Counted from the stretch's first letter, positions 1-64,000 are shown. The stretch is DNA of 64,000 bases from Candidatus Multivorans sp. (GCA_965247095.1 OZ251997.1:2688001-2752000), one strand, 5' to 3'. Numbers and translations: made by a program. Notes: a model not told the origin generated them from the sequence alone.

Positions 1-150
1 GCGGCTCAGCCCGCCGATGTCCCCTACCTCTACTTCGTCAGCCGCAACGACGGCACCCACGTCTTCGCCGAGACCCTGGCCGAGCACAACCGCAACGTCG
101 CCAGGTGGCAGGTCCGCTACTGGCGCGAGCGGCGCGCAGCGGAGCGGTGA
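1..150 (+). CDS. mltG: Endolytic transglycosylase MltG, C-terminal fragment (runs off window)
   Basis: Frame 1 reads AAQPADVPYLYFVSRNDGTHVFAETLAEHNRNV..., the MltG/YceG C-terminal YLYFV...G.H.F..T..EH motif; TGA at 148-150. Confidence 0.85.
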   Translation, partial: AAQPADVPYLYFVSRNDGTHVFAETLAEHNRNVARWQVRYWRERRAAER

Positions 151-258
151 TCCTGGGAACCCGTGTGGCGCGACCCGCGCCACACGCGAACCACTCCGTG
201 TGCCCGTCATCGGGCGCACGGATGGCACGCGGGCGTCTCGCCCACATTCCGGCGAGCC
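151..258. repeat. REP-like palindromic cassette flanked by a 12-bp direct repeat
   Basis: TCCTGGGAAC leader (151-160), 11-bp perfect hairpin (162-186), a second hairpin, and GCGGGCGTCTCGCCC (229-243). Flanked by GCGGAGCGGTGA at 139-150 and 259-270. Confidence 0.6.
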
Positions 259-323
259 GCGGAGCGGTGAGAGGGTGAACGGTGGCATAGCCCCTGCATT
301 CAACCCGGCTAAGCTCATGCCCG

Positions 324-734
324 ATGCACCTGCCCACCCTCAACGCCATCCTGAACGCCGCCGCGGCGCTGCTGCTCGTTACCGGCTACGTCCTGATCCG
401 GCGCGGTCACCGCGAGCGGCACAAGCAGGTCATGCTGGCGGCGCTGGGGTGTTCGGCGGCGTTCCTGGTCTCCTATCTCTACTACCACTACAAGGTCGGT
501 TCGGTTCACTTCGAGGGCGAGGGGACGGTGCGGACCGTCTATCTCGGCATCCTCCTGACGCACACGGTGCTGGCCGTCGCGGTGCCGCCGCTGGCGCTGA
601 TCACGGTCTTCCGGGGCCTTCGAGGCAGGTACGACCGGCACAAGAAGATCGCCCGGATCACGCTGCCGATCTGGCTCTACGTGTCCGTGACCGGGGTCGT
701 TGTGTACTGGATGCTGTACCGGATGTCGTGGTGA
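324..734 (+). CDS. DUF420 family membrane protein
   Basis: LPTLNAILN...H...M...FLVSYLYYH...ILLTHTVLA...HKKIARITLPIWLYVSVTGVVVY is the typical DUF420 pattern. Confidence 0.9.
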   Translation: MHLPTLNAILNAAAALLLVTGYVLIRRGHRERHKQVMLAALGCSAAFLVSYLYYHYKVGSVHFEGEGTVRTVYLGILLTHTVLAVAVPPLALITVFRGLRGRYDRHKKIARITLPIWLYVSVTGVVVYWMLYRMSW

Positions 735-3939: not shown

Positions 3940-4047
3940 CGGCGCCCCCGCGCCCGAAACGGCAGCAGGAACCCTCCGGCGGGGCGGCGAATCCGGTAGG
4001 ATTTCGGCCGCTCGGCCGATTAGGGCCGACCCAGGAGTTGACTACGC

Positions 4048-6232: not shown

Positions 6233-6253
6233 TGTTGTACGACAACCTCTCTG

Positions 6254-7096: not shown

Positions 7097-7126
7097 GGCG
7101 CGAGGTCATGGTGAGGGCAGCGCCGC

Positions 7127-7162: not shown

Positions 7163-7168
7163 CGCCTT

Positions 7169-9506: not shown

Positions 9507-9522
9507 GGAACGGTTGCTAACG

Positions 9523-13541: not shown

Positions 13542-13619
13542 GCTGGCGGGAGTAGTATCGAGGTAGCCGTACGGCGTCGGCCGAGCGGCAGGGATAAGAG
13601 TCAGGCGATGTAGTCCGAG

Positions 13620-15136
13620 ATGCCGCGACCAAACGCCTTCAAGGCAAACGCCAGCTTCTTCAGGATGATCGCCCTGGGTGCCGTGGGCGCTCAGGGCGTT
13701 CAGGACCACCTGAGCGCGTTTGGACACGAGATGGTGGAACTAGAGCGCGGTTCACTCTCGACGAAGATCTGGCAAGACGTGAAGAGAAAGCGGGTCCGGA
13801 TACCGGACCTGTGCTGCACGCTATGTGGTGTTCGAGTGGAGTCGCGAGCGAAGACAAGGCCCGACTTGCGAATGTCGCACTCTACGCAAGACGCGGAACG
13901 TGCTTGGGACTACGGCATGCTCGACGGCGACTGGGTTGCATTTCCCGTTCTTTCGTCGCAAGAAGACTACTGGAGCGCGGGGGCGCTTGATGCGGAGCGT
14001 TCGCTCTGGCGCGAGCGGATCCGCACTTCGTGGAAGAGCGACGGCTATCTCAACTTTTTTGAAGTGGCGTCATTTCGAGGTGTGCCGTTTGAGCAAATCG
14101 GGCGCAAGGGGGTCACCGAAGGTTCGGAGATCCAGATCAAATGGTCGGCGCGTTTTGCTCCTGAGGATGGTCGCGTCACACGGCTGGAAGAGAAGAAGAT
14201 TCACTACACGACCGTTGGCGCCCCCGAGCGTCAGAGGCACTATCGCCTCGGCTCGAGCCTGAGTCCGGTTCTTCACGAAGGACAGAGGTTCGAGAAACAC
14301 CAAGTCATAGCTGCCCAGGCGCCTTCGCTGGACGTGGCGGAGCTGCAGTGTCGTGGGGGGTGCGATCGGCGACGCATTGCGGAGATGATTCGGTCGCGCG
14401 AGCGTACGAGTCGCTTTACAGGGTGCAAGCTGGCAAGGCTCCTGAGGAGCGGGACACTGGTGGACGCGATTCGGGAACTGGCTCAGGACGCCGTGGAAGA
14501 CACCTATGTTCGGATGGAAGCGCGGTCGTTTCTCTGTGCTGTAGCGGGCGAGAATGCCGATGTTTGGTTTCGCGAGATTCTGCTCGACCACCCAGACGAT
14601 CAGATGCGGCTGGAAGCCGTTGTCGCGCTTGCAGAGGTGCAGACACCGAGTGCCTTCAGGCTGTTGAGTCTCGTCCTGGAGGATCGGACGCAGGCTCTGT
14701 ACCTGCGGAGCGCATGCGCTTGGGCCATCGGCTGCCACCCCACGCGGGACGCCGCCGAGTGCCTAGTCCGCGCATTCTCGGATATCAGTGTGGAGGTGCG
14801 CAGCGAGGCGCTGGCGGCGCTCGAGAATCTGGCCGACTCAGGGCTCCAGGCTCTCGTTGCCGGCCTTGGCCATAGCTCGACCGGCATAGCTGCGGGTCAG
14901 CCGAGGCAATTCGCAGAATCGGTCGCCTTCCCAGGAGTCAGGTTGAGCGGGTCGTCGAGATGGCGGAGAGCAGCCGGTCAACTTGGCCGACATGGGCCTT
15001 GGGCCATCTTCCGAGCGACGACGTGAAGCCCCTCATCGCGACGCTTCAGGAGAGACGCCCCGACGTTCACTTTGCGCTCTCGGTGTTGTGGACCTTCCTG
15101 GAGAGCTGGGTGTCAAGAGACTGGTCGGCGCGATGA
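13620..15136 (+). pseudogene. Putative restriction-type nuclease (PD...E with CxxC) fused to C-terminal HEAT repeats; single frameshift near 14896
   Basis: IPDLCCTLCGVRVESRAK near the N-terminus; HEAT-like repeats (VRMEA, MRLEAVVALAEV, LRSACAWAIG, VRSEALAALENL). The -1 frame from 14897 (SAEAIRRIG...WSAR*) ends in TGA overlapping the MTase ATG. Could be a sequencing error rather than a true pseudogene. Confidence 0.6.
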
Positions 15137-16158
15137 GCGACCTGTTAGGGACTGGCCCTTGCTCCGAACTGAACCTGTGTCACACCCCTGTGTACCAGAC
15201 CCGCTATGGGGCTTGCTACCTCGGCGACTCGCTGAAGCTGATTCGCGAAATTCCGGCCGAATCGGTCGACTTAGTCGTGACCTCTCCGCCGTTTGCGCTG
15301 CTCAGGCAGAAGGCATACGGCAACAAGGGGCAGGCCGAGTACGTGGATTGGTTGTGTGAGTTCGGTGGGGAGGTCCTTCGTGTCCTTCGTGACACGGGGA
15401 GTTTCGTCCTAGATCTCGGTGGCGCCTACAAGCGGGGAGTGCCCGTTCGTTCTCTCTATCAGTATCGTGTTCTGCTGAAGCGATGTGACGAGACTGGCTT
15501 CCACCTCGCGGAAGAGTTCTTCTGGCACAACCCGGCGAAGCTACCTTCGCCAATCGAGTGGGTGAACAAGCGAAAGATACGAGCCAAGGACTCGGTGGAT
15601 ACCGTTTGGTGGCTTTCGAAGACGGAGTGGCCAAAGGCAGATGTTAGACGAGTGGTGGTTCCCTACTCGGAACGTATGAAGAAGCTCCTGCGAAACCCAG
15701 AGAGCTTCTACAGCCCCAAGAAGAGGCCATCCGGCCACGAGATCGGCAAGAGCTTCGAAGCAGAGAACAAGGGCGCAATACCTCCCAATCTCCTTCAGAT
15801 CGCAAACACGGACAGCAACTCTACGTACCTGCGTCTTGCGAAGCTCTTAGGGGTTAAGAGACATCCAGCCCGTTTTCCTCTGGGTCTTCCCAAGTTCTTT
15901 GTCGCCTTCCTTACCGATCCGGGTGATCTGGTTCTGGACATATTTGCTGGGTCAAACACGACCGGAAGAGCCGCAGAGGAACTCGGCCGCAGATGGGTCG
16001 CAGTGGAGATTGACAAGGACTACGCCGCCGGCTCGGCCCTTCGCTTCATGGATCGACTGCGTTCGTCCGAGGTGCGAGAGACGTTTGACCGAGTATGTCG
16101 GGGAGAGGCACCAGATTTGTCGGGACCGCCGTCGTTGTGGGAGCAGGTGGCTCCTTAG
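15133..16158 (+). CDS. Beta-class N4-cytosine DNA methyltransferase, M.PvuII-like
   Basis: TSPPFAL, NPAKLPSPIEWVNKRKIRAKD, WWLSKTEWPK, RPSGHEIGKSF, IPPNLLQI, HPARFP, DIFAGSNTTG; colinear with M.PvuII as I recall it. Confidence 0.9.
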   Translation: MSDLLGTGPCSELNLCHTPVYQTRYGACYLGDSLKLIREIPAESVDLVVTSPPFALLRQKAYGNKGQAEYVDWLCEFGGEVLRVLRDTGSFVLDLGGAYKRGVPVRSLYQYRVLLKRCDETGFHLAEEFFWHNPAKLPSPIEWVNKRKIRAKDSVDTVWWLSKTEWPKADVRRVVVPYSERMKKLLRNPESFYSPKKRPSGHEIGKSFEAENKGAIPPNLLQIANTDSNSTYLRLAKLLGVKRHPARFPLGLPKFFVAFLTDPGDLVLDIFAGSNTTGRAAEELGRRWVAVEIDKDYAAGSALRFMDRLRSSEVRETFDRVCRGEAPDLSGPPSLWEQVAP

Positions 16159-16192
16159 GCCCTAAGGGTGATTCGCGCCGAGGGCGGCAACT

Positions 16193-16822: not shown

Positions 16823-16866
16823 CGCGGCGGAGAATACATGGCGACGAGTGCTCGGTGCTGAGTCTG

Positions 16867-16912
16867 TCCTGGGAACGCGGGCATCCTGCCCGCATCGGGC
16901 GCGAAGCGCCCG
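16867..16912. repeat. REP-like palindrome
   Basis: TCCTGGGAACGCGGGCATCCTGCCCGCATC followed by hairpin CGGGCGC-GAA-GCGCCCG; same family as 45079-45108 and 151-245. Confidence 0.7.
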
Positions 16913-16950
16913 CTCGGTGATCCCTCAAACGCTGCAATACAGGCCACCGG

Positions 16951-20471: not shown

Positions 20472-21695
20472 ATGATCAACCGAATCGCCATCAAGGGCTT
20501 CAAGAGTTTTCGCGCCGTGACCGTCGACTTGGGCGGATTGAACCTGTTCGTCGGCACGAATGCCAGCGGCAAGTCGAACTTCTTCGATGCGCTTCGCGTG
20601 CTGCAGGGGATCGGCAACGGCTTCACCGTGAGCGAGATCCTTGACGGCAAGCCGAGAAGCGCGACCAGCGAGGTTTGGGAGGGGATTCGAGGCGGGAGTG
20701 CGAAGGCGTGTTTCGAGGGGCCTGAGCAGCCTGAGATCTTCTGGATTACTGCGGCGGGCCGACTGAGGCTCGGAAAGGCGATTAGGCGATGGAAGTACTC
20801 CGTGACCGTGTCTCCGAACCGAGGCCATGTTGAGCGGGAGAGTCTGGAGTACGGAGGCCGTTCCATCTATGACTCCCGCTATGCCGACAGGGGTGGCGTC
20901 GGGAGCCCGGTTCTCAAAGTCGAGTATCAACACGGAGGACGCGGCCGACCCCGGCACCTACCGTTCGAACGTTCCCGGCCCGTTCTGCGGCAATTTGAAG
21001 GCGCGAATCGGGTGGAGTCGCAGCATGGTGCAATCACTGCGCGGGTGGCCGACGTGTTGGCCGACATGCAGCGGGTCGATCCCACGCCGACGATTCTGAG
21101 GGGTTACTCGCAGGCGCGGCAGGTGGACCGCATGGGCGAACACGGGGAGAACTTTGCCGCCTTGGTCAGGGGAATCTGCGCCGACCCCGATGTGGGTGGC
21201 GGATACCTCGATTGGCTGCGCGAGTTGCGGCCGGCGGAAGTGGACAGCGTAGGGACCTTGTCCGGTGCCGTGGGCGAGCCGCTCTTCATGTTGCGAGAGG
21301 GGGACAGGGAGTTTCCGGCACCGGTGTTGAGCGACGGGACGCTCCGGTTTGCCGCGATCGCTGCGGCGTTCTTTCAGCCCGACATGCCGCAGATCATGAC
21401 GATCGAGGAGCTCGAGAACGGCATACACGCGAGCCGAACGCGCCTGATCCTGGAACTCCTTCGGGCCAACGCCACGGCTGGTTCGACGCAGATTCTGGCG
21501 ACGACCCACTCGCCGGCTGTTCTGGCGTGGTTGAAGCCGTCGGAGTACGCCACGACCTACGTCTGCCGGCGCGACCAGGACACGAGTGAATCAACGATCA
21601 CGCCGCTCCGCGACGTTCCCGGTTTCAGGGAAGTTGCCAAGAGCCACTCGCTTGCCGATCTGTTCACGGAAGGCTGGCTGGAGGCGGCTTTGTGA
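20472..21695 (+). CDS. ABC/AAA_21-type ATPase (putative defence)
   Basis: IKGFKSF, Walker A GTNASGKSN, signature LSDGT, Walker B MTIEELENGIH, TTHS. Confidence 0.9.
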   Translation: MINRIAIKGFKSFRAVTVDLGGLNLFVGTNASGKSNFFDALRVLQGIGNGFTVSEILDGKPRSATSEVWEGIRGGSAKACFEGPEQPEIFWITAAGRLRLGKAIRRWKYSVTVSPNRGHVERESLEYGGRSIYDSRYADRGGVGSPVLKVEYQHGGRGRPRHLPFERSRPVLRQFEGANRVESQHGAITARVADVLADMQRVDPTPTILRGYSQARQVDRMGEHGENFAALVRGICADPDVGGGYLDWLRELRPAEVDSVGTLSGAVGEPLFMLREGDREFPAPVLSDGTLRFAAIAAAFFQPDMPQIMTIEELENGIHASRTRLILELLRANATAGSTQILATTHSPAVLAWLKPSEYATTYVCRRDQDTSESTITPLRDVPGFREVAKSHSLADLFTEGWLEAAL

Positions 21696-22255
21696 GTGTG
21701 CGGGTTCTGGTCATCCCGGAAGATCCAACTCTCAATGGCTACATTCTGAAACCGCTGGTGGAGATGGTTCTGGCGGAAGCGGGCAAACCCACCGCCAGGG
21801 TGACGGTGCTGACGAACCCCAGAATTCGCGGGTACGATGAAGCAGTTCGGGTGATCCGTCGCGGACTGTCTTCGCGGTACGGCTTCATGGATCTGTGGCT
21901 GTTCTTTCCGGACGCGGACCGGGCCAGCGACGCTGCGATGGGCGATCTCGAGCGGAGTTTGCGGCAGCAGGGCGTCGCCCTGCTCTGCTGTCCCGCTCAG
22001 CCCGAAGTCGAGATTTACGTCTGTGCGGCCTATCGCGAGCAGATTCGCGGTTCGTGGGACGAAGCGCGCTCGAACCCGCGATTCAAGGAAACCGTCTTCG
22101 AACCGCTGCTCAAAGCGCACGGCGATCCTCGACGTCCAGGTGGCGGGCGGAGCGCGATGACCGAGAAGTCGATAGCGCAGCGGCGCCAGTTCCTTCGGCT
22201 TTGCCCGGAGATCGCCGAGTTGCGGAATCGCATCGTCGAGGTCTTGAACGGCTGA
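21692..22255 (+). CDS. TOPRIM-like (DUF4276/RloB-like) partner protein
   Basis: GTGA-coupled to the ATPase; VLVIPED, FFPDAD and PEVEIY acidic motifs. Confidence 0.65.
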   Translation: MSVRVLVIPEDPTLNGYILKPLVEMVLAEAGKPTARVTVLTNPRIRGYDEAVRVIRRGLSSRYGFMDLWLFFPDADRASDAAMGDLERSLRQQGVALLCCPAQPEVEIYVCAAYREQIRGSWDEARSNPRFKETVFEPLLKAHGDPRRPGGGRSAMTEKSIAQRRQFLRLCPEIAELRNRIVEVLNG

Positions 22256-38441: not shown

Positions 38442-38443
38442 CC

Positions 38444-47833: not shown

Positions 47834-47873
47834 TGGAGCTGGTGAGCCGACCCGCAGATCGATGCTAGGGAGG

Positions 47874-48947
47874 ATGAACGTGCCTCCACACCAACCTATT
47901 CAACGCAAGTGGGTTCACAGGTTGCTTGACTGGGAGCTCCTGGAAGGCCGATGCGTGAGGTTTCCGACGATAGGTCGGACATTTCCATTGACGCTTCTGA
48001 GGAAGTACGAAGAGCGTGAGCCGTACTTTTCTCACTACATGTCTTGGCGGCTCGGCACCTTTCAGAATGAGGCTCCCTTCGAAAGACTGGACGATCTGCT
48101 GCGGCTTGCCGAGTCACTGCCCAACTGGAAGCAGGAGAGGAAGTCTCTGGTCGGATCGGCTGATTACTCGGAGTTCTGGTCGCTGGTCTGGCAACTGCAG
48201 GTGGCCGAGCATCTCAGCAGCGTGGGTTCAGAGGTGGCCTGGGCGAGCCCAAAGGCCGCGAGTCCGGATCTGTCGGCATTGGTCGACGGCCAGCGTTGCT
48301 TCGTAGAGTGCTACGCGCCGCGCAAGTCATTTGGTCTGTTGAGCTTCATCGAACACCTCGTCTCGCTTGTCGACCGCAACATTCGTGTCTCGTACGACCG
48401 TTGCCTGCCCTTCCGCCTCGCAGGGAACTCTAGCGAGACAGCTTTCGTCGACCAAGTTCTGAAACGGTGTCTGGCCTCGGATCGTCTCGCCCAGGCCAGG
48501 CGGGAGGCAGAGACGCAGTATCCGGTGGTGCTCTTCAAGGATGAGGACAGCTCCCTCTACGTCTACCTGGAAGGCGAGAATGCCGATGCCTATATGCCAG
48601 GGATTGTGCCGAATCAGACGGGATCTCCAGAGCATTACTTGGAACTCGTGCTGAGGGAGGCGCTAGAGGCGAAGCGGTGCGCGAACGGTCTGAAGGAACA
48701 CCGGCCGAATCTCTTGGCCGTGAACTACCTCCTCAGCACCGACTTTCAGCTCGCGGAAGCACTGAGAGGCTTGCCGGCGGCGCAGATCGACGCCGAAGTC
48801 GGCGCGAGTATCGATGCTCTTGCGGTATCGACAGTCGGAATCGACGACCGCCTGAGCAAGGAGGGGCTGAAGGTAGTCAGCGACTCAAGGGCAGTGAATG
48901 TCGCAGTGAAACGAATCGCAACGCGAGTGTCGGGAAAAGGCGCATGA
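47874..48947 (+). CDS. Hypothetical protein, possible PD-(D/E)xK fold
   Basis: Long ORF with atypical codon usage; SPDL...FVECY motif; GGAGG upstream. Confidence 0.6.
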   Translation: MNVPPHQPIQRKWVHRLLDWELLEGRCVRFPTIGRTFPLTLLRKYEEREPYFSHYMSWRLGTFQNEAPFERLDDLLRLAESLPNWKQERKSLVGSADYSEFWSLVWQLQVAEHLSSVGSEVAWASPKAASPDLSALVDGQRCFVECYAPRKSFGLLSFIEHLVSLVDRNIRVSYDRCLPFRLAGNSSETAFVDQVLKRCLASDRLAQARREAETQYPVVLFKDEDSSLYVYLEGENADAYMPGIVPNQTGSPEHYLELVLREALEAKRCANGLKEHRPNLLAVNYLLSTDFQLAEALRGLPAAQIDAEVGASIDALAVSTVGIDDRLSKEGLKVVSDSRAVNVAVKRIATRVSGKGA

Positions 48948-48992
48948 CACCAGCGCCACATCGAGAAGGTACGGTTCCGGTGCGATCGGTCG

Positions 48993-50033
48993 TCATCCTC
49001 GACGTAGAGTCGAGTACTCACGCAGGCGCGTGTGAGCCACCAGTTGGCGCATGTTCTGGAGCGTGAAGACCTTTCCCCGCGCGGCGATGATGAGCTTCTT
49101 CATGTCTTCTCGCCGAATGCCGAAGCCGCGGCCCGCGATACAGGCGACGACCTGAAACTTGGGGTTGTCGGCAGGCCGGTCCCGCAGACTCAGTTCGCTC
49201 AGGTGTTGGACTCGGGTGATCTTGTCTCGGGCGGTTCCGTCGTCCTCGCTGAGCTTGGCCTCGATGACGACCTGGGGGTTCAGCTCGCTCGGAACGATGA
49301 AGTCCGGCGCTTGGTCGAAGCCGGGGATTCTCTCGGCCCGACCGGTTTTCCGAAAGGTGATGTCGGCCCGCGCCAGTGCTGCCTCGATCGCGTTCTCGAC
49401 GAGGTTACCGACGATCTCGCTCACAGAGTCGCGGTGGGCCGCGAACGGTCTTCCAAGAAACCGCTCGCAGAGGAGCACGGAGTAGGGCGCTCCCAGGCTC
49501 GCGATCGTGCGGAGGCTGTCCAGGCCGGCGGTCGTGTCGGCTTTGTCGAGCCGATGAAGTCGGTCGGCGGGCACGTTCGGCGCTCCTCGAGCCAGGTGTT
49601 CGCACGCGACGGTGACCAGCGCTCTTACCCGTTGTTCGGTAACGCCGCCGTTCCGTGGCAACGGCCGTTCAGGATCGGTCCTGATTCCGCGGTCCAAGGC
49701 CCTCGCGGCTCCTTGTGGAACCTCGATGCCCGTGTAGCGCGTGGCGAGGTACGCCCATTCCGGCGGCGTGAAGCCCAACATGCAGCGAAGGACGATCAAG
49801 GAGATCGGTTCGTCGAGGACCGCCTCTGCTACCTCCACCGGCCTGAAGGCCCGAAAGCCCGAAGTGACCCGCTTGAGCCGCTCGTAGGCGGCGTCGAACG
49901 TCGGGAAGTCAACGAAGCCCTCTCCTCGGGGCATCACGAGGAACTCCGACTCGAGAGCCCCGAACACGGCGTCAACGAAGCGGTCGAGGTTCGTCTCGAC
50001 CTCGTGGAAGGCGACTTCAAAAGGGAATGGCAA
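48993..50033 (-). CDS. Putative restriction endonuclease (PD-(D/E)xK)
   Basis: QAPDFIVP...VVIEAK catalytic motif followed by DDGTARDK; overlaps the methylase 3' end. Confidence 0.75.
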   Translation of the reverse strand: MPFPFEVAFHEVETNLDRFVDAVFGALESEFLVMPRGEGFVDFPTFDAAYERLKRVTSGFRAFRPVEVAEAVLDEPISLIVLRCMLGFTPPEWAYLATRYTGIEVPQGAARALDRGIRTDPERPLPRNGGVTEQRVRALVTVACEHLARGAPNVPADRLHRLDKADTTAGLDSLRTIASLGAPYSVLLCERFLGRPFAAHRDSVSEIVGNLVENAIEAALARADITFRKTGRAERIPGFDQAPDFIVPSELNPQVVIEAKLSEDDGTARDKITRVQHLSELSLRDRPADNPKFQVVACIAGRGFGIRREDMKKLIIAARGKVFTLQNMRQLVAHTRLREYSTLRRG

Positions 50034-52206
50034 CTTGTTTTTCCTCAGAGGCAGCCTTGCCGGGAGGCTGGCTCGCCGGCTGCTTCGGTAAGGGTGCTTC
50101 CGCGAGGCGTCGAGCCAAGTCGTCCGGGCTACCGAACCGGGTGAGTGCCTCGTTGAGCAGCCCTAGGCGTTGCTCCGTCGGCAGCGACTTGTCCCACCGG
50201 GCGTGCAGCTCGTTGACCGCGAGGCGGGTCAGGTGGCCGAGGAGCATGCATCGGATGTCGCCGTAGGTAGCCTTCCAGCCAGCCGCCCGAAGCTGGGACC
50301 GGTCCTTGGCGACAAGGGCCGATGGCTCTTCCTGCGAGTCGGGGAACTCATGCGAAAGCTCGGCGTCGGGAGACCTGCAAACAAACACAGTGTCGACGAT
50401 GGATGACGCCGTGCCGTGAATGTGTATCGAGCCGCTCATTTCCGCTGGGCACGGAAGCGCCGTGGTGCAAAGGAAGCCAGCGTCGAGAACCGCGACGCCT
50501 ACGGCACAGTAGGCCTCGACTCGATTGTGGTGGAACGTGAAAGCCAGGGGTGCGCCTGGCTTCAGCGCATCGGCTGCTCGGGTCCAGGCGGCAGACAGAC
50601 CTTCCGCGAAATGGGACAGCCCCCTGGCCTCGGTCGCATTGCCCGTCAGCTCTCGGCTCGAGCGTGTGGAGGTGCGGTTGAAGCCCTGGTGGTCAGTGGC
50701 GGCAAGGCGCTGTAACCAGGCGAAGCAGTAGTCCATGAGTTCTGCGTACTGCACGTTGCCGAAGTACGGTGGGTCCGTCAGCACCGCGTCCAGAGTGTCG
50801 GGCTCGAAATGGGTGGAGGTGGCGTCCGCGCGGCGCAATCGCACGACCCGGCGGCGGCCGTTGGCTTCCGCGCCGATGCGCTCGCCCTGGATGGGAACGC
50901 GACGCCGACGCGACCCAACCTGTTTCACCTCGAAAGGCGCCTCGCAGAATCGCTTCGCCTCCAGATACTTGCTGGTGATGTTCGACCAGCCTCCGGAGCC
51001 CACGTTTCCGCCGTTCGATCTCGGAATCCCGAGAAGGTTCGGCTCGCACTGCACCAGCCCCACCGGAAATCCATGGACCGAGAAGACATCCAGCGCCTTC
51101 AGGCTCTTGGAGTCGTAGCGACAGAGCATGTTCTGGTAGCGCAGGAGGTCGGACAAGTTGGTTGCGAGGGCTTGCCGGATCCGAGAATCCGGCACATCGG
51201 CAATCAGTCTGCAGCTCAACTCCAATCCGAGCAGTTGCCGCGAATTCGACATCTCTCGGTAGCGGCCGTAGCCCCAGCGTCGTAGCCGGTTGCTCTCGTC
51301 GCCGGCGGGAATCTCGGCATCCGGTACGTAGCGCGGTGTCAGTCCGCGCCAGTCTTCGGATGCAGCACGAACATGCTCCAGATCCTCGGCGTCGGGTTTC
51401 TTGAAGAACCGCCCCTTGTGGTGGGGCCGGTGCCTTGGATTGTGGTACTCGATCGCGAACAGCCGGTGAGCCGGTGGCCCCGAGGGCCTGTCCGGATAGG
51501 TGTTCGAGTGGCCACACCTCGGGCAATCGCAGCGGCCACGGCCTGCCGGTCCCGCGACACGGAGTTCCGCGGAGCAGGACGTACAGTCGCCGGGCCTCGC
51601 CAAGTCGGCGGCGTCGTTGAGGTCGCCGCACTCGGGACAGATCAGAACGTTGGTCGGGTGACGACTGTCCCTGGCCAGAACGAAGCCGGGAAACAGATCG
51701 ATCGAGTGGTCGCAGCCCCGACACGTCAGCGTCTTCACCCAGAGGAAGCTCTTGACCGGAACCTCTGAGTCTCCGTAGAGAGGACATCCGGTGCGGTAGT
51801 ACTTACCGATGCGTGCGTCGAGGGTGCTCCTCAGCGTGTGGGCAGCCTGTTGGTAGGCCATGAGATCGATGGAGGCGATCTCCTCCCGGACAATCCACGC
51901 CGCCATCGGATTGATGTCAAGTCCCTCGATGTCGCAGCCGATGCGATTGGCTTCGATGAGGGGAATGCCGCCGCCCATGAACGGGTCAGCGACACGGAGT
52001 CCCGGAAGATCGTGAGAACGATAGAAGGACTCGCGCAAAGGTCCGTCAACAAACTCGGAGAGCAGGAGGCCTCGGAAGAGGGTGCCGGGCCGGCGAGCGA
52101 ACCACTTGTGTACGGCGATGATCGGCCGATAGACCTGCTGGATCTGCTTCTCACGCAGAGCCATTTCGGCGACCAGAGGCACATCGAATTGGCGCTCGAT
52201 ACTCAT
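50017..52206 (-). CDS. DUF1156-like adenine DNA methyltransferase with Zn ribbons
   Basis: HKWFARRP, DPFMGGG (motif I), TDPPYFGNVQYAEL (motif IV), several CxxC pairs. Confidence 0.88.
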   Translation of the reverse strand: MSIERQFDVPLVAEMALREKQIQQVYRPIIAVHKWFARRPGTLFRGLLLSEFVDGPLRESFYRSHDLPGLRVADPFMGGGIPLIEANRIGCDIEGLDINPMAAWIVREEIASIDLMAYQQAAHTLRSTLDARIGKYYRTGCPLYGDSEVPVKSFLWVKTLTCRGCDHSIDLFPGFVLARDSRHPTNVLICPECGDLNDAADLARPGDCTSCSAELRVAGPAGRGRCDCPRCGHSNTYPDRPSGPPAHRLFAIEYHNPRHRPHHKGRFFKKPDAEDLEHVRAASEDWRGLTPRYVPDAEIPAGDESNRLRRWGYGRYREMSNSRQLLGLELSCRLIADVPDSRIRQALATNLSDLLRYQNMLCRYDSKSLKALDVFSVHGFPVGLVQCEPNLLGIPRSNGGNVGSGGWSNITSKYLEAKRFCEAPFEVKQVGSRRRRVPIQGERIGAEANGRRRVVRLRRADATSTHFEPDTLDAVLTDPPYFGNVQYAELMDYCFAWLQRLAATDHQGFNRTSTRSSRELTGNATEARGLSHFAEGLSAAWTRAADALKPGAPLAFTFHHNRVEAYCAVGVAVLDAGFLCTTALPCPAEMSGSIHIHGTASSIVDTVFVCRSPDAELSHEFPDSQEEPSALVAKDRSQLRAAGWKATYGDIRCMLLGHLTRLAVNELHARWDKSLPTEQRLGLLNEALTRFGSPDDLARRLAEAPLPKQPASQPPGKAASEEKQVAIPF

Positions 52207-56314: not shown

Positions 56315-56315
56315 G

Positions 56316-58553: not shown

Positions 58554-58588
58554 CCCGCGACCACCCGGACGACGGCCGCGGGTCGACT

Positions 58589-59692
<1,104 letters not shown>

Positions 59693-59974
59693 GTCGGTTC
59701 TCCCTCTTGAAGCTGTCGGCCCCCTATCGGGGTACTCGACCGGCGGAATCGCGGCGAATGAGCGTTGGCTTTTCCACTACGAAAGAATAAGCTAGCGGAC
59801 GGTAGCATGAGTTGACCCTCCTTTAGCAGTTTTTCTTTTCGAACCGTGCCTGAATTGATGGAAGGTTCATGAATTTCTGAAGGTTCCGCGAACTGTGTTG
59901 CTGGGCGCCCTGGAAAGCGGGGCGGCAACGCCGCCAACAAGAGGCGCCGGCCGCCTCGAGGTTGCCCGGGGGCC

Positions 59975-60892
59975 TCAGCGCGGGCTGAGGGCGCAGCGGA
60001 AGCCGGTGTTGTCGAGACCTGAATCGGGCGCCGAGTGGTTGCGGTTCGCGTTCCGGTAGCCCTCGCAGTAGCTCGCGGCGCACAGCCAGGAGCCGCCCTT
60101 CAGGACCTTCTCGCCGCCGGCGCCGCCGGGCAGGTACCAGTCGTCGCACCACTCCCAGACGTTGCCGCCGAGGTCGAAGACGCCGAGGTCGTTCGGTGGA
60201 TACGAGCCGACCGGCGCCAGATAGGTGTGCCCGTCGGCCGCCTCGTCCGTGCCGGGAAAGTCGCCCTGCCAGACGTTTCCGACCCATTCGCCGTCGGGGG
60301 CGGGATCGTCGCCCCAGGGGTAGCGGGCGTGGCCGGCGCCGTCGTTGCCGGCGGCGGCGGCGAGGTCCCATTCAGCCTCGGTCGGGAGCCGCCTACCGCG
60401 CCAGGCGCAGAAGGCGTCGGCGTCGGCCCAACTGACGTGGACGACGGGGAGTTCGGGTTGGGCTTCGGCGCCGGGGCCGCGGGGACGCCGCCAGTCGGCG
60501 CCGTCGACCCTCAGCCACCAGGGCGTTCCCGGCACCCGCTGTTCCTGGGCAGGGTTCGCGGTCGCTTCCGGGTGGAAGACCAGGGACCAGTCCCAGCGCT
60601 CGGCCTCGGTGACGAATCCGGTCGCGTCGACGAAGGCGGCGAAGTCCCGGTTCGTGACCTCGTAGACGTCCAGGTCGAAGGCAGCGACTTCGAGTTCCCC
60701 TCCGGAGCGGGGCACGGCGCCGGCGGGTACGCGCACCATGCCTTCCGGCGCCGGTTCGGGCGCGGTCGAACCGGCCGGCTCTGAAGTCACGGCCCGCGTC
60801 GACTCCTCCGGCGGACCGGCGCAACCGAGGACGGCGGCGATGCCGATCGAAGCGAGGAGCGCCGGCGGGCGTGGGCGGCGCCGCGGGGTCAC
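59975..60892 (-). CDS. Formylglycine-generating enzyme (SUMF1 family), probable lipoprotein
   Basis: EVTN..F..FV, PVVHVSW.DA, RLPTEAEW, GNVWEW, GGSWLC...YC..YR; lipobox AVLGC. Confidence 0.88.
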   Translation of the reverse strand: MTPRRRPRPPALLASIGIAAVLGCAGPPEESTRAVTSEPAGSTAPEPAPEGMVRVPAGAVPRSGGELEVAAFDLDVYEVTNRDFAAFVDATGFVTEAERWDWSLVFHPEATANPAQEQRVPGTPWWLRVDGADWRRPRGPGAEAQPELPVVHVSWADADAFCAWRGRRLPTEAEWDLAAAAGNDGAGHARYPWGDDPAPDGEWVGNVWQGDFPGTDEAADGHTYLAPVGSYPPNDLGVFDLGGNVWEWCDDWYLPGGAGGEKVLKGGSWLCAASYCEGYRNANRNHSAPDSGLDNTGFRCALSPR

Positions 60893-60997
60893 GGCGCCCA
60901 CCCGAAACGGTTCAGATCGATGCGGCCGCGCCGGTCAATGCCTGCCGTCATGGCGCCCACCCGAAACGGTCCAGATCAATTCGGCCGCAGCGATCAA
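60888..60997 (-). repeat. Imperfect 51-bp direct repeat of the ATL gene 3' end
   Basis: 60888-60938 vs 60947-60997, 44/51 identical by manual alignment. Confidence 0.88.
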
Positions 60998-61283
60998 ACA
61001 CGATGCCCTCGTCTTCGAGCAGAAAGCGCTGCCGGTCCACGCTCTCCAGCAGATCGAGACCGCGCTCGCTGACCTCGCCGCGGGCGTTGACCACCCGGTG
61101 CCAGGGCACGCCGTCGTCGCCCAGCCGGGCAAGGGCATAGCCGACCTGCCGGGCGTTGCGGGGACGCTCGGCGAGAGCGGCGATCTGGCCGTAGGTGGCG
61201 ACACGGCCCTCGGGGATGCACTGCACGATGCGGTGGAAGGTCTTGTGAAGGCCGTTCGTGGCCTGATGTTCGGGTGCGGTCAC
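60948..61283 (-). CDS. Alkyltransferase-like protein (MGMT family, ATL)
   Basis: IP.GRVATYGQIA, ARQVGYAL, PWHRV (Trp replacing the catalytic Cys). Confidence 0.92.
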   Translation of the reverse strand: MTAPEHQATNGLHKTFHRIVQCIPEGRVATYGQIAALAERPRNARQVGYALARLGDDGVPWHRVVNARGEVSERGLDLLESVDRQRFLLEDEGIVFDRCGRIDLDRFGWAP

Positions 61284-61354
61284 GATCGGGGAACCTTACT
61301 AGGAGACCGCGCCGCCTCTCCGAACCCCATTCTGCTACCTTCGGCGATCCAAGC

Positions 61355-62617
61355 ATGTCCTCCGACGATCGAGGTCACAGCCGCCTCGACCGGCGGCGCA
61401 ACTACGCCGCCCTGCTCGCCCATGGCCTGCTCGGCATGACCGGGTTCCGCCTGCTCCAGGCGCCGACCTTCCTGCCGACCTACATCCACCTGCTGACCGG
61501 CGCCAGTCTGGCGGTGGGCGCGGCTTCGGCCTGCCAGAGCCTGGGAATGTTCGTGTCGCCAGTGCTCAGCGCCGCGCTGGCCGAGCACCGCAGCCACGTG
61601 AAGTGGGCCACCGTGCTGTTCGGCGGTCTGATGCGGCTGCAGATCCTGGTCCTCGCCCTGCTGGCCCTGTTCGCGCCGGTCGATGTCGCGGTGTTCCTGA
61701 TCTGGCCGGTGCTGGTGATGTGGGGCCTGTCGAGTGGCATGCAGATGGTCGTGTTCAACCTGCTGTTGGCGAAAGCGGTGCCCGTCACTCGGAGAGGACG
61801 GCTGCAGGGGACACGCAACCTGAGTGCCGGTGTCTCGGTGATCCTGATGTCGGTCGTCGCCGGATGGGTGCTGGACCGCTACGGGTTTCCGCGGGGCTAC
61901 GGTCTGACCTTCCTGGGCGCCGCGGTGATGGCCTCGGCAGGGCTTGCTTTCATGGGCCTCATTCGGGAACCCGCCGCCCTCGATGTGCACGCGACGGGAC
62001 TCAGCCTGCGAGTCCGGCTTGGCAAACTGCCGGATCTCTTCCGCTCCGACCGCGACTTTGCGGGCTTCCTGGAGGCGCGACTGCTGAGCAGTGCCGCTCG
62101 AGGCGCCTTGCCGTTCTACATCGTGCTGGTCAGCGAGCGGTTCGGCGTCAGCGGAGCCCGCCTCGCCGGTTTGACCATCGTCTTCGTGGCGGCGCAGTCG
62201 GTCTGCGCCCTGATGTGGGGCCTGCTGGGTGACCGGTCGGGCTTTCGCGTCGTGTTCGTGCTGGCGCTCGGCACCTGGATCATGGGCAGCCTCATCGTCC
62301 TCTGGGCGCCGGTCTTCCCGGTCGCGTATGTGGTCTTCCTGCTGGTTGGCGCGGGCCTCAGCGGCGTGCTGCTCGCGTCGCAGAACCTGGTGCTCGAGTT
62401 CGGACGGGAGCGCGACCGCCCGATGCGCATCGCCGCCACCCACTCACTCTCCGAGGCGGCGGGCGTGGCGGCGTTCCTGGGTGCGGGATTGATCAGCCAG
62501 GTGGCGCCGATCGAGAGCGTGTTTCTGATCTCCATCGTTCTCCATCTGTTGGCGCTACGGAGGTTGATCCGCACCGTGGACCCGCGGCGCACGGCGCAGA
62601 AGGCCGCGGCGGACTAG
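61355..62617 (+). CDS. MFS transporter
   Basis: About 12 hydrophobic segments, G.L.DR.G motifs. Confidence 0.85.
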   Translation: MSSDDRGHSRLDRRRNYAALLAHGLLGMTGFRLLQAPTFLPTYIHLLTGASLAVGAASACQSLGMFVSPVLSAALAEHRSHVKWATVLFGGLMRLQILVLALLALFAPVDVAVFLIWPVLVMWGLSSGMQMVVFNLLLAKAVPVTRRGRLQGTRNLSAGVSVILMSVVAGWVLDRYGFPRGYGLTFLGAAVMASAGLAFMGLIREPAALDVHATGLSLRVRLGKLPDLFRSDRDFAGFLEARLLSSAARGALPFYIVLVSERFGVSGARLAGLTIVFVAAQSVCALMWGLLGDRSGFRVVFVLALGTWIMGSLIVLWAPVFPVAYVVFLLVGAGLSGVLLASQNLVLEFGRERDRPMRIAATHSLSEAAGVAAFLGAGLISQVAPIESVFLISIVLHLLALRRLIRTVDPRRTAQKAAAD

Positions 62618-62986
62618 GCCTGGCCGTCCTGGCATGGGGATTGCTTGATCCCTGTGTGTCGGGACTGCAAGCGTCGTCCCGAGAGATGTGGAACACACCC
62701 GGAGGAGGTCCCTCACCAACTCTCCTGCCTAGTAACCCAAGAGCGGACCGGCGGCGCGGCCGCGTGCTAACGACGCTTGTTCTAGCTATTCGCCTGCGCC
62801 ACTACTTGCCGGTTCAGCCTCCTGCTCGGATCTTCCAACTCGCTCCGTTATCTCTGGGCGAGCCTTCCAGATTCCTTCCAACGGACCTCCTCCGCTCCGC
62901 TTCCACCTATACCCAAGAGCCGCCGCCCCGGACACGACAACGTGGACCGGTCGCGGCGCCCGGCCGCGCCAGGATGGCGCGGTCGG

Positions 62987-64000
62987 CTAGGGACGGTCGT
63001 GCAGGTACCGTGACACGGCGTCCAGAGCGATTCGCTCCTGGGCGCCGGTGTCGCGGTCGCGCACGGTGACCGTTTGATCGTCGAGGGTCTGGCCGTCGAC
63101 GGTGAAGCAACAGGGCGTGCCGGCCTCGTCCATTCGCGCGTAGCGTTTGCCGATCGACTGCTTCGCGTCGTACTGGATGCGGTAGTACCGGCGGAGTTCG
63201 AGGTAGAGCGCCTCCGCGATCTCGGGCATTCCGCCCTTGTTCACCAAGGGGAAGACGCCCGCGTGAATCGGCGCCAGCCGGTGCGGGAAGCGCATGAGTT
63301 CGGACGATGGCCGGCTCTCGTCGACGGTGTACGCCTCGCAGAGCAGCGCCAGCACACCCCGGGTCAGGCCGGCGGCGGGTTCGATCACGTGGGGCACGAA
63401 GCGCTCGCGCGTCTGCTGATCGAAGGTCTCCAGCTTGACGCCGCTCCACTGCTGGTGCTGCTCCAGGTCGAAGCTGCCGCGGTGGGCCACTCCCTCGAGC
63501 TCGCCGAAACCCGGCTCGGTGAACGGGTACTGGTACTCGACGTCGAAGGTGCCCTCGCCGGTCTGGGCGTAGTGGGCCAGTTCGGACGCCTCGTGGCGGC
63601 GCAGGCGCAGCCGGTCGCCGGCCAGACCCAGGCCGCTCCACCAGTCCATCCGCGCCTGGGTCCAGAACTCGAACCAGATCTTGGCCTCGGACGGGTGGCA
63701 GAACCACTCCATCTCCATCTGCTCGAACTCACGGGTGCGAAAGATGTAGTTCCTCGGCGTGACCTCGTTCCGAAAGGCCTTGCCGATCTGTGCGATGCCG
63801 AACGGCAGCCGCACCCTCGAGGTGTCCAGCACGCCCTTGTAGTTCAGGAAGATGCCCTGGGCCGTTTCGGGCCGCAGGTAGGCGATGTTGTCCTCACCGG
63901 AGGCGGCGCCGACGAAGGTCTTGAACATCAGGTTGAAGTCGCGGGCCTCGGTCAGCGTCCCCGGCCCCGAGGCGCCGGGCGCCCAGACATGGTCCCGCTC
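62987..64000 (-). CDS. glyQS: Glycine--tRNA ligase, alpha2 type (5' end outside window)
   Basis: FNLMFKT, YLRPETAQGIF, IGKAFRNE.TP, FRTREFEQME, PHVIEP, IGKRY.R.DE.GTP. Confidence 0.96.
   Translation of the reverse strand, partial: ERDHVWAPGASGPGTLTEARDFNLMFKTFVGAASGEDNIAYLRPETAQGIFLNYKGVLDTSRVRLPFGIAQIGKAFRNEVTPRNYIFRTREFEQMEMEWFCHPSEAKIWFEFWTQARMDWWSGLGLAGDRLRLRRHEASELAHYAQTGEGTFDVEYQYPFTEPGFGELEGVAHRGSFDLEQHQQWSGVKLETFDQQTRERFVPHVIEPAAGLTRGVLALLCEAYTVDESRPSSELMRFPHRLAPIHAGVFPLVNKGGMPEIAEALYLELRRYYRIQYDAKQSIGKRYARMDEAGTPCCFTVDGQTLDDQTVTVRDRDTGAQERIALDAVSRYLHDRP

What the first reader, a model, noticed from the sequence alone, without database searches (positions are those of the whole stretch)
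1..64000. Apparent complete absence of the PvuII site CAGCTG across the window
Seen (manual scan): dozens of AGCTG occur but are always preceded by G, A or T, and dozens of CAGCT occur but are never followed by G. Gln-Leu is repeatedly written CAG TTG, CAG CTC or CAA CTG despite the strong CTG preference elsewhere. On base composition alone roughly 20 sites would be expected in 64 kb at ~69% GC (my rough estimate). Known: restriction-site avoidance marks long-term coexistence with a cognate nuclease. Inference: this lineage has been under long-term selection from a CAGCTG-cutting activity, which independently predicts the specificity of the neighbouring M.PvuII-like module.
Basis: partly seen in the sequence, partly recalled or inferred. 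Interest (0 to 1): 0.7.

Follow-up and report, generated by a model that had tools for sequence, protein, structure and literature searches.

The report
Genus-wide purge of the PvuII site
This bacterium and most of its genus have almost erased the six-letter DNA word CAGCTG from their genomes, the scar of long exposure to restriction enzymes that cut that word, one of which, of a previously undescribed type, lies in this window.

Summary
CAGCTG occurs 0 times in the window (19-22 expected) and 73 times in the 4.6-Mb genome (1243-1850 expected; O/E 0.02-0.06). It is the most depleted of all 2080 hexamers.

The neighbouring module is a 2.65-kb low-GC insertion. It holds a close M.PvuII homologue, translationally coupled to a 505-aa partner that is not R.PvuII-like: an N-terminal domain resembling PD-(D/E)XK nucleases, a beta domain and HEAT repeats.
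- The pair is conserved in 76 of 76 loci with room, across many phyla.
- In the DNA around those loci CAGCTG is the most depleted palindrome (112 vs 519).
- This supports a CAGCTG-specific restriction-modification system.

The module is not the cause of the purge.
- It occurs in only 3 closely related species.
- Here its nuclease gene carries a 1-bp frameshift; a ~99%-identical strain has it intact.
- 27 of 33 congeners with no M.PvuII-type methylase found are purged as strongly.
- On an IleRS tree the purge is ancestral, with at least 5 separate relaxations and at least 8 gains or losses of M.PvuII-type modules.

Best reading: long, recurrent genus-level exposure to CAGCTG-cutting systems. 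This is a known kind of phenomenon, in an extreme instance.

The parts
1..64000 (.). Window with no CAGCTG. It is part of a 279,455-bp CAGCTG-free stretch of the genome.
   Evidence: 0 matches against 19.1 expected; 0 against 21.9 codon-aware; size of the site-free stretch.
13542..16188 (+). 2,647-bp low-GC insertion (GC 0.603) carrying the two-gene restriction-modification module. It lies between argR and a molybdopterin-oxidoreductase gene.
   Evidence: GC profile. In G052 the two flanks abut exactly, at query positions 1542 and 4190 of window:12000-18000. The same insertion sits at the same site in G061 and G053, with flanks 92-97% identical.
13620..15136 (+). Candidate restriction nuclease gene, 505 aa when intact: N-terminal domain resembling PD-(D/E)XK nucleases, a beta-rich middle domain, and C-terminal HEAT repeats. 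It is frameshifted in this genome. The annotated frame runs 13620-15026; the true C-terminus is in the frame of 14960-15136.
   Evidence: Homologues are about 505 aa and align to both frames. AlphaFold2 models have pLDDT 88.3 and 80.9. The 11 best VIA-align matches are all PD-(D/E)XK nucleases, Z 5.3-7.9. HEAT_2 matches at E 6.7e-11. No REase model matches in Pfam or PADLOC.
14894..14896 (+). Run of three G where relatives have four. This 1-bp deletion shifts the nuclease frame.
   Evidence: DNA alignment with G053 and G061. Contigs of runs X5 and X7 confirm three G. Contigs of X9 and X10 (11 differences in 1201 bases) carry an extra G behind 14893.
15133..16158 (+). M.PvuII-type N4-cytosine DNA methyltransferase, 341 aa, intact. 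Its ATG overlaps the nuclease stop codon (ATGA).
   Evidence: phmmer against PDB chain 1BOO_A (M.PvuII): E 2.4e-130, 438 bits, covering chain residues 2-320 of 323, with the TSPPF motif aligned. Pfam N6_N4_Mtase E 3.8e-39. PADLOC MTase_II E 3.1e-149. ATGA overlap seen.

Best explanation
CAGCTG is a taboo word in this lineage. The lineage is a genus of Acidobacteriota; two congeners' record titles read Candidatus Multivorans. The word has been purged by long, recurrent selection against the recognition site of PvuII-isospecific Type II restriction enzymes. These circulate in the genus as small mobile restriction-modification cassettes.

Inferred mechanism. Whenever such a cassette is resident, arriving or being lost, unmethylated chromosomal sites risk double-strand cuts. 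DNA exchanged between strains that differ in carriage is cut at any site it holds. Synonymous and other tolerated changes that remove sites are therefore favoured. Sites survive mainly where the sequence is constrained (tRNAs) or recently imported (low-GC DNA).

The window holds one such cassette: an M.PvuII homologue, translationally coupled to a 505-aa nuclease candidate unrelated in sequence to R.PvuII. It was inserted between argR and a molybdoenzyme gene in, or exchanged among, a small clade of species. In this strain the nuclease gene has a 1-bp deletion, so the methylase is probably solitary here. The purge is older and wider than the cassette.

Shown: the counts, the homology, the gene linkage, the distribution and the frameshift. 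Inferred: cleavage at CAGCTG by the partner protein, methylation at CAGCTG, and the selective mechanism.
For: 1. The depletion is extreme and word-specific. 73 sites against 1243-1697 expected; lowest of 2080 hexamers; AGCT and other CMGCKG words are normal. The codon-aware O/E is 0.019, and all three reading frames are depleted: 19, 6 and 11 observed against 1513.6, 73.3 and 262.6 expected.

2. Residual sites sit where selection cannot act or has not yet acted.
- 37 of 73 lie in the 20% of the genome outside the high-GC3 gene calls. O/E is 0.113 there against 0.026 in the calls.
- 16 of 73 lie in the 37 of 923 5-kb bins with GC below 0.64.
- 3 lie in tRNA genes.

3. The methylase is a close M.PvuII homologue.

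4. Its partner is strictly linked to it. A methylase 58-92% identical lies immediately downstream in 76 of 80 loci from many phyla and two archaea. In the other 4 loci the contig ends at the nuclease gene.

5. In the 78 non-congener loci (1.32 Mb), CAGCTG is the most depleted of the 63 palindromes tested (112 against 518.6). 26 of the 55 loci with expectation of at least 5 have no site at all. The control CTGCAG gives 408 against 456.5 over all 80 loci.

6. The partner's N-terminal domain resembles PD-(D/E)XK nucleases, PvuII among them. E40, E42, P62, D63, E74 and K78 are invariant.

7. The partner decays while the methylase does not. It is broken in 8 of 76 loci, the methylase in 0 of 76. 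G000 and G061 carry different frameshifts and G053 is intact. A ~99%-identical strain is intact.

8. Distribution in the genus.
- 36 of 42 species have 61-301 sites.
- M.PvuII-type methylases of three sequence types, each with a different partner gene, occur in 9 of 42 species.
- Their presence needs at least 8 changes on an IleRS tree, and weak depletion at least 5.

9. Passages of PMC4687349 report that avoidance grows with the lifespan of a restriction-modification system. They also report avoidance without the system, read there as traces of lost systems.
Against: - No cleavage or methylation data exist for any part of this.
- The nuclease gene is frameshifted in this very genome.
- 33 of 42 species show no M.PvuII-type methylase with this query. 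I found no other gene that tracks the purge. The one C5 methylase of G000 is in 19 of 42 species, including weakly purged ones.
- The specificity of the second methylase type is ambiguous. In its metagenome loci GGATCC (65 against 223.2) is slightly more depleted than CAGCTG (85 against 250.3).
- The specificity of the third type was not tested.
- Expectations for relatives rest on a crude yardstick, the reversed word GTCGAC. In G000 the Markov expectation is about 0.25-0.35 of that count.
- The tree is of one gene, built by the quick method.
- The fold matches have Z below 8, a range the tool calls common.
- The canonical E-x-K lysine position holds R76, with K78 two residues later.
Confidence: 0.75

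Rival explanations
1. The neighbouring module itself caused the purge. On this view the lineage has carried this very cassette for a long time, and the avoidance is its direct footprint.
For: The three carriers of this cassette have three of the four lowest counts in the genus: 61, 73 and 86, with the lowest non-carrier at 94. The module itself has no CAGCTG.
Against: The three carriers are close relatives that share the insertion at one site, so they count as one event. 27 of 33 species without any M.PvuII-type methylase have 94-301 sites, and both major clades of the genus are purged. The module has foreign composition (GC 0.603 against 0.68). An exact empty site exists in G052.
Confidence: 0.04
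2. The purge is a fossil. An ancestor of the genus held a CAGCTG system for a long time, the system is gone, and nothing selects against the word today in most species.
For: Most species lack a detectable system. PMC4687349 interprets such cases as traces of lost systems (passages). Sister genera show intermediate ratios of 0.11-0.21 to the yardstick.
Against: Five species at five separate places on the tree have 509-1959 sites. One of them (G046, 509) sits in a tight clade with sisters at 118-148. So sites return on the time scale of speciation where the constraint lapses, and the other 36 species need continuing constraint. M.PvuII-type modules are still being gained and lost, with at least 8 changes. 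An intact nuclease allele exists in a ~99%-identical strain.
Confidence: 0.13
3. The cause is not restriction. It could be a mutational bias, for example deamination of the methylated cytosine turning CAGCTG into CAGTTG and CAACTG. Or a host factor could use CAGCTG as a signal, so that stray copies are harmful.
For: CAG-TTG and CAA-CTG, the deamination products, take 858 of the roughly 1495 missing Gln-Leu CAG-CTG pairs (my arithmetic).
Against: CAA and TTG are simply the synonymous transition alternatives, so the pattern does not discriminate. CAA-CTC is enriched as much (586 against 173). Frames 2 and 3 and non-coding DNA are depleted too. A methylation-driven bias needs the methylase in every purged species, and 33 of 42 lack it. 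From general knowledge, not a call: N4-methylcytosine deaminates to uracil, which is repaired. Unrelated phyla that carry the nuclease-methylase pair show the same purge.
Confidence: 0.06

Closest known systems
Restriction-site avoidance in prokaryotic genomes. Sources: Rusinov et al. 2015, PMC4687349, of which I read passages; Gelfand and Koonin 1997 and Rocha et al. 2001, which I recall and did not read here.
   Same: A palindromic recognition word is strongly under-represented against Markov expectation. The avoidance is linked to the time a Type II system has resided. Avoidance also occurs in genomes that no longer hold the system.
   Different: The degree is extreme (O/E 0.02-0.06, the lowest of 2080 hexamers). 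It is shared by 36 of 42 species of a genus of largely uncultured Acidobacteriota, with at least five separate relaxations. At least three different M.PvuII-type cassettes come and go on that purged background.
The PvuII restriction-modification system of Proteus (R.PvuII, M.PvuII, C.PvuII)
   Same: The methylase is a close homologue of M.PvuII (E 2.4e-130, full length, SPPF motif). The inferred site is CAGCTG.
   Different: The partner is not an R.PvuII-family protein. It is 505 aa with a beta domain and HEAT repeats, has no Pfam Endonuc-PvuII match, and gives only Z 5.4-5.5 in fold comparison with PvuII. There is no room for a C-protein gene. The genes are co-directional, nuclease first, with an ATGA overlap. 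The divergent, C-controlled layout of PvuII is recalled and from the abstract of PMC2175313.
Small PD-(D/E)XK nucleases: I-Ssp6803I, archaeal Hjc, NhoI, MspI, DpnI
   Same: These are the best structural matches of the N-terminal 240 residues (Z 7.9 to 5.5). The domain has conserved acidic residues and a lysine on the core strands.
   Different: No sequence similarity is detectable (Pfam, PDB and PADLOC searches). The motif reads D63...E74-S-R76-A-K78 rather than D...(D/E)-x-K. The domain is fused to a beta domain and about 260 residues of HEAT repeats.

Membership tests
Restriction-driven site avoidance | The word is significantly under-represented against composition-, Markov- and codon-aware expectations | tested here: met
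   0 against 19.1-21.9 in the window. 73 against 1243-1697 in the genome. 36 against 1849.5 in gene calls.
Restriction-driven site avoidance | The depletion is specific to the full recognition word, not to its sub-words or degenerate relatives | tested here: met
   AGCT O/E 0.97. CCGCGG 0.94-1.14. CAGCGG and CCGCTG 0.87-0.99. CAGCTG is the lowest of 2080 hexamers.
Restriction-driven site avoidance | The genome encodes, or has encoded, a system that recognises the word | tested here: met
   An M.PvuII homologue with a conserved nuclease-like partner is present. The specificity is inferred from homology and from avoidance in 78 unrelated carrier loci. It has not been measured.
Restriction-driven site avoidance | Avoidance co-varies with carriage of the system among relatives | tested here: not met
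   Within the genus, 27 of 33 species without an M.PvuII-type methylase are as purged as the 9 carriers. Across phyla, carriers of the module are purged.
PvuII-type restriction-modification system | M.PvuII-family N4-cytosine methyltransferase | tested here: met
   phmmer against 1BOO_A: E 2.4e-130, chain residues 2-320 of 323, SPPF motif aligned.
PvuII-type restriction-modification system | R.PvuII-family endonuclease (Pfam PF09225) | tested here: not met
   The partner ORF matches only HEAT and Arm families at E up to 1. The genome-wide PF09225 search found 0 of 21 genomes, but its control rang in 0 of 14, so that search alone says little.
PvuII-type restriction-modification system | Controller (C) protein gene with C-boxes | tested here: not met
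   The 2,647-bp insertion is filled by the two genes (13620-15136 and 15133-16158). Only 78 bases remain upstream and 30 downstream. C-boxes were not searched.
PD-(D/E)XK nuclease superfamily (partner protein) | alpha-beta-beta-beta-alpha-beta core fold | tested here: inconclusive
   The 11 best of 48,161 chains are all PD-(D/E)XK nucleases, Z 7.9-5.3, with 90-134 residues aligned. The tool warns that Z below 8 is common. Foldseek found nothing at E of 1e-3 or better; Hjc ranked 41st.
PD-(D/E)XK nuclease superfamily (partner protein) | Catalytic D...(D/E)-x-K motif | tested here: inconclusive
   P62, D63, E74 and K78 are invariant, and R76 is kept in at least 90% of 59 and of 38 sequences. The spacing is E-x3-K, with R at the canonical K position.
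Solitary (orphan) DNA methyltransferase | No cognate nuclease gene beside the methylase | tested here: not met
   A conserved partner lies upstream in 76 of 76 loci with room. In this strain the partner is frameshifted, so the methylase may act as a solitary enzyme.

The most novel reading that the evidence does not exclude
The 505-aa partner founds an undescribed, very widespread family of PvuII-isospecific restriction endonucleases: a PD-(D/E)XK-like domain fused to a beta domain and HEAT repeats. I found 177 loci among species-representative genomes of many bacterial phyla and two archaea. Its specificity can be read purely from the purge it leaves in host DNA. The genus-wide taboo would be a population-level adaptation: a shared site-free gene pool lets strains that differ in carriage of CAGCTG cassettes keep exchanging DNA and gain or lose the cassettes without dying. 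That in turn would keep such cassettes circulating.
Probability: 0.45. Interest if true: 0.6.

Novelty: new member of a known kind. Interest (0 to 1): 0.5.

Why it matters
Restriction-site avoidance is textbook biology, so the finding itself is a strong new instance and not a new principle. Three things give it value.

1. It is one of the cleanest cases one could ask for. It shows a near-total, word-exact purge, ancestral to a genus, with several independent relaxations. That makes the rate of site loss and regain, and the question of what maintains a taboo when most genomes lack the enzyme, directly measurable in a group with many complete genomes.

2. Avoidance plus gene linkage assigns a recognition site (CAGCTG) to a large, unannotated protein family. 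That family is currently labelled only 'HEAT repeat protein'. The prediction can be tested in a week with commercial PvuII as comparator.

3. It warns that a neighbouring restriction-modification module and an avoided word can agree without the module being the cause.

Tried and rejected
- R.PvuII family (PF09225) in 21 genomes: 0 matches, but the control rang in 0 of 14 genomes, so the search is uninformative.
- Foldseek on the full-length model returned only HEAT and armadillo repeat proteins. Foldseek on the N-terminal model gave nothing at E of 1e-3 or better.
- PDB sequence search with the partner found only artificial HEAT proteins.
- Search for a genus-wide methylase that tracks the purge:
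  - The only C5 methylase of G000 is in 19 of 42 species, including the weakly purged G045, G046 and G050. It is missing from the strongly purged G061, so there is no correlation.
  - The other N6_N4 methylase hits of G000 were not pursued. One is a roughly 1040-aa protein whose homologues also occur in the unpurged G003. I take it to be a Type III-like Mod methylase from recalled motifs only.
- AAGCTT, the second most depleted palindrome, as the site of the DUF1156-like methylase: it is uniformly low in all 57 family genomes (36-155 in the genus), so it is not tied to that sporadic gene.
- Specificity of the second methylase type: it is ambiguous between CAGCTG and GGATCC in metagenome loci. 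GGATCC is not depleted in the four carriers within the genus (1757-2001 sites).
- A deamination signature cannot be separated from synonymous-codon constraint.
- Earlier notes of this scan: nothing fitted.
- Literature:
  - CAGCTG with avoidance terms gave 11 irrelevant papers.
  - 'HEAT repeat' with 'restriction-modification' gave 22 papers. None of the 12 listed was, by title and abstract, about a HEAT-repeat Type II enzyme.
  - In one search, the 10 papers listed out of 122 had no 'HEAT repeat' occurrence.
  - 'Multivorans' with 'Thermoanaerobaculia' gave 2 papers, neither on this topic.
- REBASE was not available, so I cannot say whether the family is listed there as putative.
Full report
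**1. The observation**

An exact search finds no CAGCTG in the 64,000-base window. Dinucleotide-preserving shuffles expect 19.1 (sd 3.9).
- 78 AGCTG occur, none preceded by C.
- 44 CAGCT occur, none followed by G.

The window is G000:C1:2688001-2752000 of a single-contig genome of 4,617,209 bp. That genome holds 73 sites against 1580 (mononucleotide), 1697 (order-2 Markov) or 1243 (order-4 Markov) expected. The window lies in a 279,455-bp site-free stretch.

CAGCTG has the lowest O/E of the 64 palindromic hexamers under both Markov models. It is also lowest of all 2080 strand-merged hexamers with expectation of at least 50: 0.059, with AAGCTT next at 0.213. The depletion belongs to the whole word:
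- AGCT is at 0.97.
- CCGCGG, CAGCGG and CCGCTG are normal.

**2. Codon-aware test**

I called genes crudely by GC3, giving 2913 calls that cover 80% of the genome. I then computed the expected count from the amino-acid sequences and genome-wide synonymous codon usage.
- Expected 1849.5, observed 36 (O/E 0.019).
- By frame: 19, 6 and 11 observed against 1513.6, 73.3 and 262.6 expected.
- For the 41 calls wholly inside the window: 21.9 expected, 0 observed.
- Twenty other words run through the same model gave O/E between 0.47 and 1.37. The exceptions were AAGCTT (0.34) and the replacement words CAGTTG (2.96) and CAACTG (1.60).

Gln-Leu is CAG-CTG in 19 of 3595 cases.

**3. Where the remaining sites are**

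- Three of the 73 lie in tRNA genes: Thr, Asp and Ala.
- 37 of 73 lie in the 20% of the genome outside the high-GC3 calls. O/E is 0.113 there against 0.026 inside.
- 16 of 73 lie in the 37 of 923 5-kb bins with GC below 0.64.

Sites persist where sequence is constrained or looks imported.

**4. The neighbouring module**

Pfam annotation of the window shows ordinary housekeeping genes, among them an arginine operon, IleRS and molybdopterin genes. One N6_N4 methylase lies at 14983-16158 in a low-GC patch. Its likely start is the ATG at 15133.

The methylase matches the solved M.PvuII chain 1BOO_A over residues 2-320 of 323, with E 2.4e-130, and the SPPF motif is aligned.

The upstream ORF (13620-15026, 468 aa) matches only HEAT repeats in its C-terminal part. 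A database search found 346 relatives at E of 1e-3 or better among 8000 scored candidates. They are typically 503-508 aa and 42-85% identical.

Alignment shows the window's gene leaves the family's frame after about residue 427. The family's C-terminus is encoded in the frame of 14960-15136. The cause is one missing G in a G-run at 14894-14896. With the frame restored the gene would end at 15136, overlapping the methylase start as ATGA.

**5. Is the frameshift real?**

- Contigs of two runs of one sample (X5, X7) match the window over 14300-15239 without any difference, at depth 66.5 and 32. They show the same three G.
- Contigs of two runs of another study (X9, X10) differ at 11 letters in 1201 and carry a fourth G, which gives an intact frame.

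The tool warns that the best holder may be the window's own source sample. So X5 and X7 show that the deletion is not peculiar to this assembly, but they are not independent strains. X9 and X10 show that an intact allele exists in a ~99%-identical strain.

**6. What the partner is**

An AlphaFold2 model of an intact relative is confident (pLDDT 88.3, pTM 0.84). It has three parts:
- an N-terminal alpha/beta part,
- a beta-rich part,
- HEAT repeats from about residue 240.

The N-terminal 240 residues were modelled alone (pLDDT 80.9) and compared with 48,161 solved chains. The 11 best matches are all PD-(D/E)XK nucleases:

| Match | Z |
|---|---|
| I-Ssp6803I | 7.9 |
| Hjc | 6.5 |
| NhoI | 6.4 |
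| MspI | 5.8 |
| D212 | 5.7 |
| DpnI | 5.5 |
| PvuII | 5.5 and 5.4 |

These Z values are in the range the tool calls common, and Foldseek found nothing significant. The fold assignment is therefore likely but not secure.

E40, E42, P62, D63, E74 and K78 are invariant, and R76 nearly so, in 59 and in 38 aligned sequences. No Pfam or PADLOC restriction-enzyme model matches the protein.

**7. Linkage and avoidance across phyla**

A scan of species-representative genomes found 177 loci encoding relatives of the partner; 80 were kept. By their record titles they come from:
- Planctomycetota, Acidobacteriota, Gemmatimonadota, Chloroflexota, Cyanobacteria, Armatimonadota, NC10 and proteobacterial lineages,
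- Opitutia and Limisphaerales,
- two Methanotrichaceae archaea, and others.

In 76 of the 80 loci an M.PvuII-type methylase (58-92% identical) follows immediately. In the other four the contig ends at or within 114 bases of the match.

Over the 78 loci that are not congeners (1.32 Mb, flanks included):
- CAGCTG is the most depleted of the 63 palindromes with expectation of at least 30 (112 against 518.6, O/E 0.22). CCTAGG is next at 0.32.
- 26 of the 55 loci with expectation of at least 5 have no site, and 39 of 55 have at most one.
- The control CTGCAG is 408 against 456.5 over all 80 loci.

This ties the pair to CAGCTG independently of homology. Since solitary methylases are not expected to drive avoidance, it also argues that the pair includes a cutting activity.

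The partner gene is broken (more than one frame, or a partial best match) in 8 of 76 loci. The methylase is broken in 0 of 76. That asymmetry is expected of a toxic nuclease gene.

**8. The module is young and local**

An M.PvuII-type methylase at E of 1e-30 or better occurs in 9 of 42 genomes of the genus, and in 0 of 15 genomes of 12 other genera of the family. There are three sequence types:

| Type | Identity to the window's methylase | Genomes | Partner gene |
|---|---|---|---|
| This one | at least 91% | G000, G061, G053 | PD-(D/E)XK-like/HEAT protein |
| Second | 55-56% | G002, G005, G043, G052 | protein with an Mrr_cat domain |
| Third | 48-50% | G001, G039 (G039 with a stop codon) | ResIII helicase |

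G061 and G053 carry the module at the same site as the window, with flanks 92-97% identical. In G052 the two flanks abut exactly, which defines a 2,647-bp insertion at window 13542-16188. At that site G058 and G059 have about 130 bases, and G062 has an IS110-family transposase. G061 has its own frameshift near residue 382, while G053 is intact.

**9. The purge is old and wide**

Counts in the 42 genus genomes:
- 36 have 61-301 sites.
- G046 has 509, G050 722, G045 783, G056 826, G003 1097 and G011 1959.
- The reversed word GTCGAC, the tool's yardstick, occurs 3872-6112 times.

In G000 the Markov expectation for CAGCTG is 0.25-0.35 of the GTCGAC count. So ratios of 0.054 or less mean strong depletion, while G003 (0.26) and G011 (0.51) are essentially unpurged. 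I could not compute proper expectations for genomes other than G000.

Of the 33 species without a detected M.PvuII-type methylase, 27 have 94-301 sites. Several of these are complete single-contig genomes, for example G062 with 94. Other genera of the family range from 0.11 to 0.69 of the yardstick. Eight genomes of other families in the order range from 0.11 to 2.3.

**10. Phylogenetic pattern**

I built an IleRS protein tree of 43 rows: G000, 39 congeners and 3 outgroups.
- G035 was left out because it had no match.
- G045 was left out because its gene is in two frames.
- G036 is partial.
- The tree used the quick method with SH-aLRT support only.

The tree puts strongly purged species in both major clades of the genus. 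The five weakly purged species included fall at five separate places, needing at least 5 changes. Presence or type of the M.PvuII-type methylase needs at least 8 changes. G046 (509 sites) sits in a well-supported four-species clade with 118, 128 and 148.

The simplest reading has three parts:
- The purge is ancestral.
- It has lapsed repeatedly.
- The cassettes turn over continually.

This is one gene and one quick tree, so the counts of changes are rough.

**11. What maintains the purge in non-carriers?**

I do not know, and I say so plainly. No single methylase I tested tracks the purge.

The second methylase type may also be CAGCTG-specific. In 79 metagenome loci CAGCTG is 85 against 250.3. 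But GGATCC is slightly lower there (65 against 223.2) and is not depleted in the carriers within the genus. That specificity stays open.

The reading I favour is recurrent exposure at the level of the genus's gene pool. It fits the passages of PMC4687349 on lifespan and on traces of lost systems. A pure fossil explanation is weakened by the independent regains.

**12. Comparison with the known**

The phenomenon is classical restriction-site avoidance.

The module works like a Type II restriction-modification system of PvuII specificity, but it is not a PvuII system by membership:
- Only the methylase is homologous.
- The nuclease candidate belongs to another, unannotated family.
- There is no room for a C-protein gene.

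I found no description of a HEAT-repeat Type II enzyme in three literature searches, seen as listings only and as one irrelevant listing. REBASE was not available.

**13. Verdict**

Novelty: a new member of a known kind, with a probably new nuclease family as a by-product. Interest is moderate.

Noticed in passing
window 20472-22255 (+): A low-GC two-gene island. It holds an AAA_21 ATPase matching the candidate defence family PDC-M07A (E 3.3e-68, PADLOC) and MADS3-like models, followed by a 187-aa ORF with no family. The island is absent from G061 and present in G053.
   Followed up: partly
window 47862-52206: A second low-GC island (GC 0.60-0.65). It holds a 729-aa DUF1156-like DPPY methylase (50017-52206, minus strand), which is 88% identical to a gene lying next to the second-type M.PvuII-like module in G052. 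Downstream is a 346-aa ORF (48993-50033, minus strand) with a PD...EAK-like motif and no family match. A 361-aa ORF without a family is also present. This is probably a second restriction-modification system of unknown site.
   Followed up: partly
whole genome and 57 family genomes: AAGCTT is the second most depleted hexamer in G000 (120 against 483-562). It is uniformly rare in all 42 genus genomes (36-155) and in most other genera of the family, including those not purged of CAGCTG. CTAG is also low (O/E 0.34), as in many bacteria.
   Followed up: partly
window about 16863-16919: A repeat of about 50 bases downstream of the molybdopterin-oxidoreductase gene. It matches dozens of places (88-100% identity) in each of four congeners. 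It looks like an interspersed REP-like element.
   Followed up: no
L220 3124-4506 (G062), same intergenic site as window 13542: In G062 the argR / Mo-oxidoreductase spacer holds an IS110-family transposase instead of the restriction-modification module. The spacer therefore seems to be an insertion hotspot.
   Followed up: partly
L002, L003, L011, L012 (second-type modules in G002, G005, G043, G052): Each locus of 2.7-3.9 kb holds 2-3 CAGCTG sites, although the host genomes have only 72-267 in 4.4-5.1 Mb. In L094 the sites lie in the partner gene and the methylase gene (7039, 8217, 8349). This points to recent import or a regulatory use.
   Followed up: no
L138-L140 and other metagenome loci: Some carriers of the Mrr_cat/methylase pair have 0 CTGCAG against about 5 expected, and several have 0-1 GGATCC against 7-9 expected. 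These are avoidance signatures of other systems in those organisms.
   Followed up: no
genome 3,764,302-3,767,746 (outside the window): Four CAGCTG sites cluster in a low-GC region (0.58-0.60) that includes a tRNA-Ala(TGC). It looks like the rRNA operon, where sequence constraint would preserve the word. I did not confirm the rRNA.
   Followed up: no
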